64,000 bases of DNA from an uncultured delta proteobacterium (GTDB lineage: Bacteria; Myxococcota_A; Polyangia; Haliangiales; Haliangiaceae): NCBI GenBank assembly GCA_963848295.1, contig CAWKDB010000002.1, positions 1,443,161 through 1,507,160 of the forward strand, read 5' to 3'. Each line of letters begins with the position of its first letter. The stretch's first letter is position 1. Shown piece after piece: positions 17,703 to 20,232 of the stretch. The translations under genes and the position numbers were made by a program. Under the pieces are notes generated by a model, which did no database searches, was not told the origin of the DNA, and worked only from the letters and a program-made list of their open reading frames with translations.

Positions 17703-17879
17703 ACCAATCCTAACGCGCGGCGGAGCGAGAAGACCTGACGACTCGCGGGCGGCCGTATCGGAGGTGCCGTATCAAGGCATCGCTGACAGGAAGGTGTCGG
17801 GACATAGCTGACACCTATGAAGGGCGATGCCCTGGAATGCGCGGCGAGTTATGGGTTTGAAGCCCGAGCTCATCACCGA

Positions 17880-18330
17880 TGCGTCGGCGTCGGCGTCGGC
17901 TGCGGCGACGGCCGCGGCAACGGCAACGGCTTCGGCATCGGCGACGGCTACGGCATCGGCGACGGCTCCGGCATCGGCGACGGCGACGGCTCCGGCATCG
18001 GCGACGGCGACGGCGACGGCTGCGGCTCCGGTCACGGCGACGGCCCCGGCAACGGCTGCGGCGTCGGCGACGGCTCCGGCTGCGGCGACGGCGACGGCAT
18101 CGGCGACAGCTCCGGCATCGGCGACGGCATCGGCGACGGCATCGGCGACGGCTCCGGGGCATCGGCATCGGCGACGGCTCCGGTCACGTCGACAGGGGGG
18201 CAACGGGTACGGCTCCGGCATCGGCGACGGCTCCGGCATCGGGGGCGACGGCTCCGGCATCGGGGGCGACGGCTCCGGCATCGGCGACGGCTCCGGCATC
18301 GGCGACGGCGACGGGCGACGGCTCCGCCGG
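17880..18330 (+). repeat. Degenerate hexamer tandem tract (CGGCGA/CGGCAT/CGGCTC/CGGCTG)
   Basis: Directly visible, e.g. ggcgacggctccggcatc repeated over ~450 bp. Confidence 0.95.
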
Positions 18331-18389
18331 CTTCGCGACCGGCGCGTTTGAATCCGGCATAGGGTGCCGGAATCATCTCCGGCGCGCGC

Positions 18390-18710
18390 TCACCGCGTGA
18401 GCCGGAACAGCATCGCGCGCACGCGATCGAGCGGCGCCTCGATCGCGGCGAAGTCCTCGGCGGTGATGTAGCCGCGCGCCTTGGCGATCATGAGCGCCGT
18501 CGACAGCTCGCGCGCGCTGCCGAAGGCGCGGCGGAACATGTCGGGCCGGTCGAGGCCGGCGCGTGCGCTCGCCTCGGCGATGTTGAGCGCGATGCTCTCG
18601 GCGGCGCGGCCGATCTCGTCGGCGAGCGACCTGCGCCGCGATCGGAGCTTCGGCTCGACCGGGGCGAGCTGTTCGAGGACGGTGAGCGATTGAGCGAGGA
18701 CGTCGAGCAT
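18390..18710 (-). CDS. Four helix bundle protein (23S rRNA IVP / Avd-like), copy 1
   Basis: MLDVLAQ...SLADEIGRAAESIALNIAEA...AFGSARELSTAL...ARGYI...MLFRL matches the LxDQxxRAxxSxxxNIAEG...GSxxE pattern; AAAGG RBS. Confidence 0.88.
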   Translation of the reverse strand: MLDVLAQSLTVLEQLAPVEPKLRSRRRSLADEIGRAAESIALNIAEASARAGLDRPDMFRRAFGSARELSTALMIAKARGYITAEDFAAIEAPLDRVRAMLFRLTR

Positions 18711-18736
18711 GGTGTTGCCTTTCGTGGATGAGCGGA

Positions 18737-18929
18737 CGCCCGATTCGCCGGGGCCGTCTCGCCCGTCGCGCCGCACTCGCGCCGGCGCCGTGACGAGCGC
18801 GAGCACAAATCTCCGCACGCGTCGGTCGATCCAACTCGGCGGCGGTCGTTCGCACGCGTCGGTGGCCTCGGCGCTCGGCGCGGCGCTGGCGCGAAGCGGC
18901 GCAGGGCGACGGCCCCGGCGATCGGTGCG
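18737..18929 (-). ncRNA. Putative structured leader RNA/hairpin element upstream of four-helix-bundle gene, copy 1
   Basis: 18737-18783 is complementary to 18888-18929 (~40 bp bulged stem) with nested inner stems; paralogous to 19294-19490. Confidence 0.5.
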
Positions 18930-18946
18930 CCGCGAGCGCGAAAGGT

Positions 18947-19265
18947 GGCGGCATCGGCATCGGCATCGGCTGCGGCATCGGCTGCGGCTGCGGCGTCGGC
19001 ATCGGCTGCGGCTGCGGCTGCGGCTGCGGCGACGGCTGCGGCTGCGGCGACGGCTGCGGCTGCGGCGTCGGCATCGGCTGCGGCTGCGGCTGCGGCTGCG
19101 GCTGCGGCTGCGGCTGCGGCTGCGGCGACGGCTGCGGCTGCGGCGACGGCTGCGGCGACGGCGGCGGCGACGGCGGCGGCGGCGGCGACGGCGGCGGCGG
19201 CGGCGACGGCGGCGGCGACGGCGGCGGCTGCGGCTGCGGCGACGGCGACGGCGACGGCGACGGCT
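18947..19265 (+). repeat. Degenerate hexamer/trimer tandem tract (CGGCTG, CGGCGA, CGGCAT, CGG)
   Basis: Directly visible, including a pure (CGGCTG)n run near 19075-19125; separates the two divergent units. Confidence 0.95.
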
Positions 19266-19293
19266 TTAGAACCCTCGATGCTCCTTCGCTCGC

Positions 19294-19490
19294 GCCGATG
19301 GGCGGAACGTCTCTCTCGCCCTGCGCCGCTTCGCGCTTGTCCCGCGCCGAGCGCCGAATGCGCCGGCGTCTGCGATCGACCGCCGCGGAGTTGATCGGCC
19401 GGCGATTGCGGTGGTCAGCGCCCGCGCTCGTCACGGGACCCGCGCGAGTGCGGCGCGACGGGCGAGAGAGAGACGTTCCTACCCATCGGC
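19294..19490 (+). ncRNA. Putative structured leader RNA/hairpin element upstream of four-helix-bundle gene, copy 2
   Basis: gccgatgggcggaacgtctctctcgccctgcgccgcttcgcgc pairs with gcgcgagtgcggcgcgacgggcgagagagagacgttcctacccatcggc; inner stems are conserved with copy 1. Confidence 0.5.
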
Positions 19491-19511
19491 CACTCACTTC
19501 GGAGGATCATC

Positions 19512-19835
19512 ATGTCGTTCTACGCCCTCGACTTCGCCCTCGCCGTCCTGCAGCAGCTCGCCCCGATCGAGGCCAAGGTCCGCCGCACGCGCAAGTCACT
19601 CGCCGACGAGATCGTCCGCGCCGGCGAGAGCGTCGCGCTCAACCTCAGCGAGGGCCGCATGCGCATTGGCCTCGATCGCCCCGACTTCTATCGCCGCGCC
19701 GCCGGCAGCGCGAGCGAGCTCACGACCGCCCTGCTGATCGCGCAGGCGCGCGGCATCATCACCGCCGAAGACTTCGCTGCGATCGACGAGCCGCTCGATC
19801 ACGTCCGCGCGATCCTGTGGCGGCTCACGCACTGA
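19512..19835 (+). CDS. Four helix bundle protein (23S rRNA IVP / Avd-like), copy 2
   Basis: GGAGG RBS; SLADEIVRAGESVALNLSEG...AAGSASEL; about 64% identical (68/106, hand count) to copy 1. Confidence 0.9.
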   Translation: MSFYALDFALAVLQQLAPIEAKVRRTRKSLADEIVRAGESVALNLSEGRMRIGLDRPDFYRRAAGSASELTTALLIAQARGIITAEDFAAIDEPLDHVRAILWRLTH

Positions 19836-19985
19836 GCAAGCAGTCTTGCGCCGGCCTCCGCGCCGGCCAAACCGATTTTCGGCACCGCCCAAGCGCGCGA
19901 GGTGTAAGCGGGGTGTCAAGAGAACGTCGCCTCGTAACCTCAAGGATCCCGACAAATGTGTCCGCGATCTCTTGAGCACTTCCTC

Positions 19986-20232
19986 ACGGCAACAGCGACG
20001 GCAATGGCGACGGCAACGGCAACGGCGACGGCGACAGCGACGGCAACGGCGACAGCGACGGCAACGGCGACGGCGACAGCGACGGCAACGGCGACAGCGA
20101 CGGCAACGGCAACGGCGACGGCGACGGCAACGGCCACCGAGACGGCGACGGTTACGGCTCCGGTCACGGCGACGGCAACGGTTACGGCTCCGGTCACGGC
20201 GACGGTCGCGGCTCCGGTCACGGCATCGCCTG
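19986..20232 (+). repeat. Degenerate hexamer tandem tract (CGGCAA/CGGCGA/CAGCGA)
   Basis: Directly visible gcgacggcaacg repeats, ending with two copies of cggttacggctccggtcacggcgacgg. Confidence 0.95.

What the first reader, a model, noticed from the sequence alone, without database searches (positions are those of the whole stretch)
17761..20232. Twin divergent four-helix-bundle (IVP/Avd-like) cassettes, each with a structured leader, embedded in hexamer arrays: candidate undescribed RNA-protein element
Seen: two ~64% identical four-helix-bundle genes (18390-18710 minus, 19512-19835 plus) arranged head-to-head. Each has a ~195-nt nested hairpin 21-26 bp before its start codon, a short hairpin after its stop and a shared distal motif, with three CGGCnn tracts flanking and separating them. 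Known: this fold includes 23S rRNA intervening-sequence proteins and the DGR accessory protein Avd, which binds RNA and partners a reverse transcriptase. No rRNA, RT or transposase is adjacent here. Inference: a modular ncRNA plus RNA-binding protein unit that duplicates as a block, possibly a non-autonomous mobile or retro-like element, or an autoregulated RNP.
Basis: partly seen in the sequence, partly recalled or inferred. Interest (0 to 1): 0.85.

Follow-up and report, generated by a model that had tools for sequence, protein, structure and literature searches.

The report
Enzyme-less multicopy hairpin–gene–repeat cassette
Two small genes of an unexplained protein family, each behind a long conserved hairpin predicted to hide its own ribosome-binding site and set between six-base repeat tracts, form a unit found ten times in this soil bacterium's genome and missing at matching sites in relatives, so it is likely a selfish element that spreads without carrying a transposase or reverse transcriptase.

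Summary
Observation confirmed and extended. Both genes are PF05635/TIGR02436 four-helix bundles with the Xcc0516/Avd fold. The genome holds 10 copies of this twin, a second twin, a solo and a remnant; all 24 strong leader matches lie at these loci. Copies are under purifying selection (dN/dS 0.13, 0.16) and look recombined. A close relative (G104) has clean empty sites, decayed remnants, swapped flanks, and a histidine kinase where this copy sits. At one site the empty junction is contiguous in 18 further genomes, so the element was gained here. The leader covaries, and its base is predicted to pair with the Shine-Dalgarno in 31 of 35 leaders. The basic unit is array-hairpin-gene; twins are composites of different subfamilies. 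No RT lies among 201 neighbouring ORFs, and a 21-copy genome has no Y1 match. Best reading: a selfish cassette copied by host recombination through its repeat tracts (inferred); retro-mobility is not excluded. No RNA data. The scan noted such cassettes before, in this genome and others; my searches found no paper.

The parts
17757..17878 (-). Distal segment with a degenerate, inverted copy of the B-side tail motif; outer left edge of this copy
   Evidence: Score 44 vs 0 of 3000 null segments; E 0.3 in genome nhmmer; homology to G104 ends at about 17753
17881..18322 (+). Left hexamer array, (CGG NNN)n, mostly CGGCNN; differs between copies
18353..18371 (-). Short hairpin after the stop of gene A, recognisable in the 9 intact A copies
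18390..18710 (-). Gene A, 106-aa four-helix-bundle protein (PF05635/TIGR02436), pI 10.2
   Evidence: dN/dS 0.126 over 9 intact copies
18718..18945 (-). Leader hairpin of A: basal anti-SD/SD helix, long stem, conserved internal loop, 70-nt inner segment with a central conserved motif
   Evidence: z -6.2; bounds; covariation; SD pairing
18949..19266 (+). Middle hexamer array; reads (CCG NNN)n on A's sense strand, the usual upstream orientation in relatives
   Evidence: A-B start distance 587-884 nt, no frame kept
19277..19511 (+). Leader hairpin of B (core 19294-19490) with basal helix predicted to sequester the SD
   Evidence: z -9.0; P(unpaired SD) 0.01
19512..19835 (+). Gene B, 107-aa four-helix-bundle protein, pI 6.7
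   Evidence: model pLDDT 94.5; Z 17.3 to 2rld, 16.6 to 2gsc, 15.1 and 14.8 to Avd; dN/dS 0.164 over 10 copies
19836..19867 (+). Two short hairpins after the stop of gene B
19897..19983 (+). Tail motif, full in 5 and partial in 1 of the 10 B copies; lineage-specific passenger
19986..20232 (+). Right hexamer array
17754..20273 (.). Whole segment that stands where relative G104 has a 430-aa histidine kinase gene between the same two flanking genes
   Evidence: best match of that kinase in this genome is 46% over part of its length

Best explanation
This is one copy of a multicopy, dispensable cassette (repeat array, long hairpin, four-helix-bundle gene, short hairpin, array), here as a head-to-head twin, which likely spreads selfishly without an enzyme of its own, most likely by host recombination or repair that uses the CGG-phase arrays as homology or priming arms. 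SHOWN: copy number, gain at one site, empty and decayed sites in a relative, flank exchange, selection on the ORFs, covariation in the hairpin, no partner enzyme in cis. INFERRED steps: (1) a copy lands next to a gene's stop codon, often beside other units or short CGG runs; (2) neighbouring units then multiply as a block; (3) gene conversion keeps A copies and B copies alike, each half on its own, and crossovers between copies swap flanks or delete neighbours; (4) on read-through RNA the hairpin base hides the ribosome-binding site, as the IS200 leader does, so protein would be made only from shorter or processed RNA; (5) the protein is predicted to form an Avd-like ring that binds the element's own conserved internal loop or its repeats and favours copying or survival of the element.
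For: 10 twins, 1 further twin, 1 solo, 1 remnant at unrelated loci; 24 of 24 strong leader hits at these loci. Copy number 22 (G000), 21 (G084), 3 (G100), 0 (G011) in well-assembled genomes; 55 of 91 genus genomes positive (tally includes two unpublished genomes). G104: empty at 4 sites, remnants at 3, kinase at this site, left flank of one copy joined to right flank of another. Empty junction contiguous in 18 further genomes; 0 of 18 fetched outgroup loci hold the gene. dN/dS 0.126 and 0.164; 189 of 325 and 197 of 406 site pairs incompatible; A and B distances uncorrelated, rho -0.06. Twins join different subfamilies in either orientation. 2 of 5 empty sites carry 3 or more in-phase CGG units against 61 of 2125 gene ends. 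SD partner at the hairpin base in 31 of 35 leaders; P(unpaired) 0.26 vs 0.50 without the 5' arm and 0.43 in 19 control genes; IS200 precedent in PMC4513863. Avd fold; Avd pentamer binds a stem-loop (10.1101/2023.10.23.563531).
Against: No intermediate (circle, cDNA, RNA) was seen and no RNA run holds the locus at more than a small share. 3 of 5 empty sites show no CGG run, and n is small. One site has a 6-bp duplication at both edges, which suggests a staggered cut rather than homologous exchange; the other empty sites show none. Polarity was tested at one site only; G104's other empty sites could be losses. Homoplasy could partly reflect recurrent third-position changes or polishing of near-identical copies, and the flank swap could be a misjoin in either assembly. 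The antisense strand folds better in 20 of 25 hairpins and G-U pairs are not in excess (54 vs 62 A-C). Protein B is neutral, not basic. Y1 transposase genes sit within about 2 kb of units at 5 loci in 3 genomes (coordinates).
Confidence: 0.5

Rival explanations
1. Retro-like element: the ring protein binds the hairpin RNA as Avd does and recruits a reverse transcriptase encoded elsewhere, which copies the unit, and perhaps writes the repeats, into sites next to gene ends.
For: Same fold as Avd. Hairpin with an invariant internal loop and an inner segment of fixed length, 69-73 nt in 25 of 25 motif-selected leaders, around a conserved central motif resembling the repeat unit. The free positions of the hexamer favour T and A over G and C in a 68% GC genome. 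One 6-bp duplication. RTs found in 26 of 30 genus genomes.
Against: No RT among 201 neighbouring ORFs. The genome's RTs score best as group II intron RTs. G047 (6 copies) and G076 (2 copies) gave no RT match, though both are drafts. No adenine bias in coding differences; leader variation is raised at A in A-type leaders (13 of 32 columns) but not in B-type (3 of 26). Arrays show higher-order repeats typical of slippage (by eye).
Confidence: 0.2
2. REPIN- or MITE-like passenger: a transposase encoded elsewhere (Y1/RAYT-like or DDE) recognises the hairpin as single-stranded DNA and moves the unit.
For: Long imperfect palindrome in extragenic sites; near-symmetric mismatch pattern fits a DNA hairpin. 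9 Y1 genes in this genome. Y1 genes next to units at 5 loci in 3 genomes, one of them between arrays. One 6-bp duplication.
Against: G084 (21 copies, 93% complete) and G102 (7 copies) have no PF01797 match. G069, G103 and G011 have 36, 58 and 11 Y1-like matches but 0, 1 and 0 units. The Y1 genes here carry a different upstream repeat. The hairpin is internal, ends are ragged, and no gene-less hairpin copies were found. DDE families were not surveyed genome-wide.
Confidence: 0.1
3. Addiction module: the protein is toxic and the hairpin, or an antisense RNA from it, keeps it silent, so that copies persist.
For: SD sequestration; antisense strand folds well; selection on all intact copies.
Against: G104 keeps only decayed remnants; ten redundant copies blunt addiction; no toxin family matched in Pfam or NCBIfam.
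Confidence: 0.08
4. Host regulatory module: protein and hairpin or repeats act on the 3' ends of neighbouring transcripts to the host's benefit.
For: Arrays often begin right after neighbours' stop codons; ORFs under purifying selection.
Against: Neighbours are unrelated in function; sites differ between close relatives; 0 matches in near-complete G011.
Confidence: 0.08
5. Assembly artefact of low-complexity DNA.
For: The window shows apparent indel errors elsewhere (a regulator gene at 14276-15762 in three frames).
Against: Short-read contigs match parts exactly; arrays differ at every copy; same build in G084 and in metagenome contigs, hairpin motif in 11 and upstream array in 10 of 13 loci with enough upstream DNA.
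Confidence: 0.02

Closest known systems
ORF-bearing 23S rRNA intervening sequences (Coxiella burnetii S23p element, Leptospira; PMC4990558)
   Same: Same protein family; sporadic selfish insert built around a long stem; dispensable and prone to decay.
   Different: Not in rRNA; the ORF lies behind the hairpin, not in its loop; direct hexamer arrays; 20 or more genes per genome at unrelated intergenic sites; RNase III excision untested.
Diversity-generating retroelement Avd with its spacer RNA (10.1101/2023.10.23.563531; PMC10053308)
   Same: Same fold (Z 15.1, rmsd 1.7 A over 104 residues to 8ub7_B); a conserved stem-loop next to the gene.
   Different: 12% identity; no RT in cis; no adenine-specific variation in the ORFs; closer to Xcc0516 and BT_0352 than to Avd.
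REPINs and REP doublets with RAYT (PMC3337134, PMC3733652)
   Same: Extragenic long imperfect palindrome forming an intragenomic population; no enzyme in cis.
   Different: Encodes a protein under selection; about 230-nt hairpin plus arrays; a 21-copy genome lacks any Y1 match.
IS200 5' leader (PMC4513863)
   Same: Stem-loop sequestering the SD of the element's only gene.
   Different: The gene is not a transposase; the lock is predicted here, not measured.
Repeat-flanked four-helix-bundle cassettes noted earlier in this scan (e1-3910770, e1-7341965 and others; unchecked AI notes)
   Same: Hexamer or heptamer arrays with a PF05635 gene, many copies, gain and loss.
   Different: This report adds polarity at one site, a possible target duplication, the SD lock, the composite nature of twins, and independence from Y1.

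Membership tests
PF05635 / TIGR02436 four-helix-bundle protein | Score above curated cut-off | tested here: met
   55.1 and 46.4 bits vs 33.8; 52 and 47.5 vs 24
PF05635 / TIGR02436 four-helix-bundle protein | Xcc0516-type fold | tested here: met
   Z 17.3 (2rld) and 16.6 (2gsc), above unrelated bundles at 12.8 or less
PF05635 / TIGR02436 four-helix-bundle protein | Homopentameric ring | not testable with these tools
   The complex tool takes at most four copies
23S rRNA intervening sequence | Inserted in an rRNA gene | tested here: not met
   No rRNA in the window; neighbours of the genome's copies are protein genes
23S rRNA intervening sequence | ORF enclosed by terminal inverted repeats | tested here: not met
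   Hairpin lies upstream; arrays are direct in the 10 twins. Some relatives have inverted arrays around the gene
23S rRNA intervening sequence | Excision by RNase III | not testable with these tools
   Needs RNA work
Diversity-generating retroelement | RT encoded in the cassette | tested here: not met
   0 RT in 201 neighbouring ORFs; genome RTs lie elsewhere
Diversity-generating retroelement | Adenine-specific differences between template and variable repeats | tested here: not met
   Coding differences among copies at third positions, mostly C/G and transitions; no dedicated TR/VR search was run
REPIN / RAYT system | Cognate Y1 transposase in genomes with the repeat | tested here: not met
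   G084 and G102 have no PF01797 match; both are incomplete (93%, 98%)
REPIN / RAYT system | Short non-coding hairpin doublets without an ORF | tested here: not met
   24 of 24 strong leader hits lie at gene or gene-remnant loci
Insertion sequence / MITE | Terminal inverted repeats and constant ends | tested here: not met
   Ends are arrays or variable tails; the inverted tail pair is weak and seen only in this copy
Insertion sequence / MITE | Target-site duplication | tested here: inconclusive
   6-bp duplication at 1 of 5 comparable empty sites; flanks are about 10% diverged
Known Rfam RNA family | Match at gathering score | tested here: not met

The most novel reading that the evidence does not exclude
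A new class of minimal mobile element in which an Avd-like ring protein and a structured cis RNA are all that is encoded: the ring reads the invariant internal loop or the core-plus-free-spacer repeats, recruits a host polymerase, RT or repair machine in trans, and copies the unit, possibly writing the repeats itself. This would give the large orphan PF05635 family a function and suggest where DGRs and rRNA intervening sequences got their four-helix-bundle gene.
Probability: 0.3. Interest if true: 0.9.

Novelty: new variant of a known kind. Interest (0 to 1): 0.7.

Why it matters
PF05635/TIGR02436 proteins are numerous (13,669 clusters at 50% identity match a profile of this subfamily at E 0.001), and the papers I read give no function outside DGRs. 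Here the gene sits in a defined unit with a covarying hairpin, a predicted translation lock, filled, empty and decayed sites, and signs of rearranging its host chromosome, yet with no recognisable mobilising enzyme. That makes both questions directly testable: what the protein binds, and how such a cassette moves.

Tried and rejected
Rfam: nothing at gathering score in the element; one chance miRNA hit in the array. Sigma-70 promoter and intrinsic terminator scans: 0 sites. Viral contigs: no relative with two pattern sets. Four-copy complex prediction: no answer, score 0.21, no evidence either way. RNA runs: only small shares, none laid. The genus-wide search with the RNA model gave no result, so gene-less hairpins were not surveyed outside this genome. 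Strand assignment by G-U excess failed. RNAalifold on the MAFFT alignment recovered only the 16-pair core; outer stems are supported only by arm matching (own arm best in 15 of 25 by alignment, 9 of 25 by duplex energy). Guide-RNA idea: inner segments are nearly identical among copies at different sites, so not site-specific guides. Coding role for arrays: rejected for the middle array (no frame kept; 7-mers in some tracts), but one 'right array' (C2:1181k) is the neighbour's coding tail. Obligate A+B heteromer: not supported. Tail as an IS end: no other carriers found. Two G104 comparisons ended at contig ends and one flank gene had no match here. The Beggiatoaceae repeat paper does not mention this family. 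Paper search was swamped by an unrelated word; PMC47033 was not held.
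Full report
OBSERVATION. The stretch is as described. Genes A and B pass PF05635 and TIGR02436 cut-offs. A model of B (pLDDT 94.5) matches BT_0352 (Z 17.3, rmsd 1.5 A, 106 aligned), Xcc0516 (16.6, 1.8, 104) and Avd (15.1, 1.7, 104; 14.8, 1.8, 102), above unrelated bundles at 12.8 or less. 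By sequence only Xcc0516 and BT_0352 match well. Both leaders fold far better than shuffles. The three arrays share one orientation, with CGG spaced 6 nt apart in 817 of 955 intervals over 23 tracts.

COPIES IN THIS GENOME. There are 10 A/B twins (one with A truncated), a more distant twin, a solo and a remnant; intact A copies are 93-97% and B copies 92-96% identical to the window's proteins. A leader profile gives 24 strong hits, all at these loci; weaker hits include the reverse strands of the same palindromes and others at E above 0.04. Arrays differ at every copy. Of 53 CGGC arrays in the genome 27 lie near these loci; I looked at 20 of the other 26 and by eye most lie inside ORFs. Mean dN/dS is 0.126 (9 A copies) and 0.164 (10 B copies); about half of informative site pairs are incompatible, and A and B distances do not correlate. 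I read this as selection plus gene conversion acting on each half separately; recurrent third-position change or polishing could contribute.

FILLED AND EMPTY SITES. G104 is a close relative (flanks about 81-94% identical). At this window's site it has a 430-aa histidine kinase gene with no ortholog here. Of the other loci compared: four are empty (C2:1181k, C10:727k, C10:1502k, C10:4854k); three hold decayed remnants (C10:511k, C11:318k, C2:904k); the left flank of the C2:611k copy is joined directly to the right flank of the C11:442k copy; one flank of C2:860k adjoins a gene end not matched here, and two comparisons hit contig ends. The solo at C10:1111k was not compared. At C2:1181k six bases found once in G104 stand at both edges here. 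At C10:4854k the aldolase-DUF1223 junction aligns in one piece in 18 further genomes of 91 searched, and none of 18 fetched outgroup loci holds the gene: a gain in this lineage. Two of five empty junctions carry short in-phase CGG runs against 61 of 2125 gene ends; suggestive only.

RELATIVES. Named relatives are mostly Kofleriaceae or Haliangiales. A profile finds the gene at E 1e-25 in 55 of 91 genus genomes, with 22, 21, 3 and 0 matches in four well-assembled ones (the tally includes unpublished G010 and G057). G084 has divergent twins with arrays at 10 of 10 loci fetched, but its second gene is a distant subfamily with a shorter hairpin. A tree of 76 proteins on only 106 columns shows twins built from different subfamilies, divergent or convergent, and many solos. 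In metagenome contigs 11 of 13 loci with enough upstream DNA have the hairpin motif and 10 an upstream array; 6 of 19 were too short. More distant subfamilies have other hairpins without the motif.

THE HAIRPIN. Of 84 gene hits 48 had both anchor motifs upstream; I aligned 25 of them, so the set is chosen by the motif. The 16-pair core is 98% paired, 6 pairs have changes on both sides, 0 of 500 shuffles reach this, and slid controls fall to 17-60%; relatedness inflates such scores. An internal loop is nearly invariant and the inner segment is 69-73 nt long with a conserved centre. The base of the fold is predicted to pair with the SD in 31 of 35 motif-selected leaders, the anti-SD changing with the SD; mean P(unpaired) is 0.26, 0.50 when the 5' arm is removed, and 0.43 in 19 control genes. 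That points to a role on the sense RNA. Against it, the antisense strand folds better in 20 of 25 and G-U is not in excess, so a DNA-level role remains open.

NO PARTNER ENZYME. Pfam scans of 122 and 79 selected neighbouring ORFs (of 237 and 157 called; four-helix-bundle genes and some edge ORFs left out) gave no RT, 2 Y1, 1 DDE, 2 integrases at one locus and 1 IstB. The genome's three RTs score best as group II intron RTs. Y1 genes neighbour units at 5 loci in 3 genomes, but G084 and G102 have no Y1 match and Y1-rich genomes can lack the unit. Shared preference for the same intergenic sites explains this best.

MECHANISM. Shown and inferred steps are separated in Best explanation. That it is a selfish, dispensable multicopy element I put at about 0.85; the array-recombination route at about 0.5. 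The analogy to ring proteins that read core-plus-spacer repeats (TRAP, Hfq) is recalled and comes from no call.

LITERATURE. Passages read: PMC4990558, PMC3936711 (notes these genes in cas loci), PMC10053308, PMC3733652, PMC3337134, PMC4513863, PMC4679880, PMC5524665; passages and section 8 of 10.1101/2023.10.23.563531. No supplements were read. Searches listed no paper describing such cassettes; the library lacks most subscription journals and two of these searches were noisy. The scan's own notes report similar cassettes in this genome and in eight others; they are unchecked and not independent support.

VERDICT. A real, recurrent and apparently undescribed element related to ORF-bearing intervening sequences but failing membership in IVS, DGR, REPIN and IS/MITE classes. 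Interest 0.7.

Noticed in passing
G000 C2:271k, C2:437k, C2:797k, C10:2647k, C10:3467k, C10:4056k, C10:4408268, C11:722k: A second four-helix-bundle family forms a small element with about 15-bp terminal inverted repeats, CTAG just outside them and inverted hexamer tracts; a gene-less mini copy exists at C10:4408268, and group II intron sequence abuts or interrupts several copies.
   Followed up: partly
G000 C8:9516-9824, C10:3043690-3043905; L025: Further four-helix-bundle subfamilies are each bracketed by a different short repeat motif, inverted at C8:9516 and L025, suggesting that protein subfamily and repeat motif go together.
   Followed up: no
G000, 9 Y1 loci (L035-L042): RAYT-like Y1 transposase family with its own 130-bp upstream repeat, 12 matches in the genome; up to 58 related matches per genome in the genus.
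   Followed up: partly
G000 C2:499258-499341: An intergenic CGGCNN array right after a stop codon with no hairpin or gene: a possible solo array.
   Followed up: no
L189, L190, L192, L193 (G084): A short motif that ends a transposase-like ORF in L190 recurs inside or at the edge of arrays of other copies, as if an IS targets these tracts (family not identified, no Pfam hit).
   Followed up: no
L134:4509-5804 (G104): An aspartyl protease gene and another ORF lie between the array and the A remnant where G000 has unit B: cargo exchange at arrays.
   Followed up: partly
arrays at family-I loci: The two free positions of the hexamer favour T and A over G and C in a 68% GC genome; unexplained.
   Followed up: partly
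window 14276-15762: A sigma-54-type regulator gene appears in three reading frames (by eye): indel errors or a pseudogene.
   Followed up: no
window 57773-58125: tmRNA gene.
   Followed up: no
L226: A unit directly upstream of two tyrosine recombinase genes in one metagenome contig; single case.
   Followed up: no
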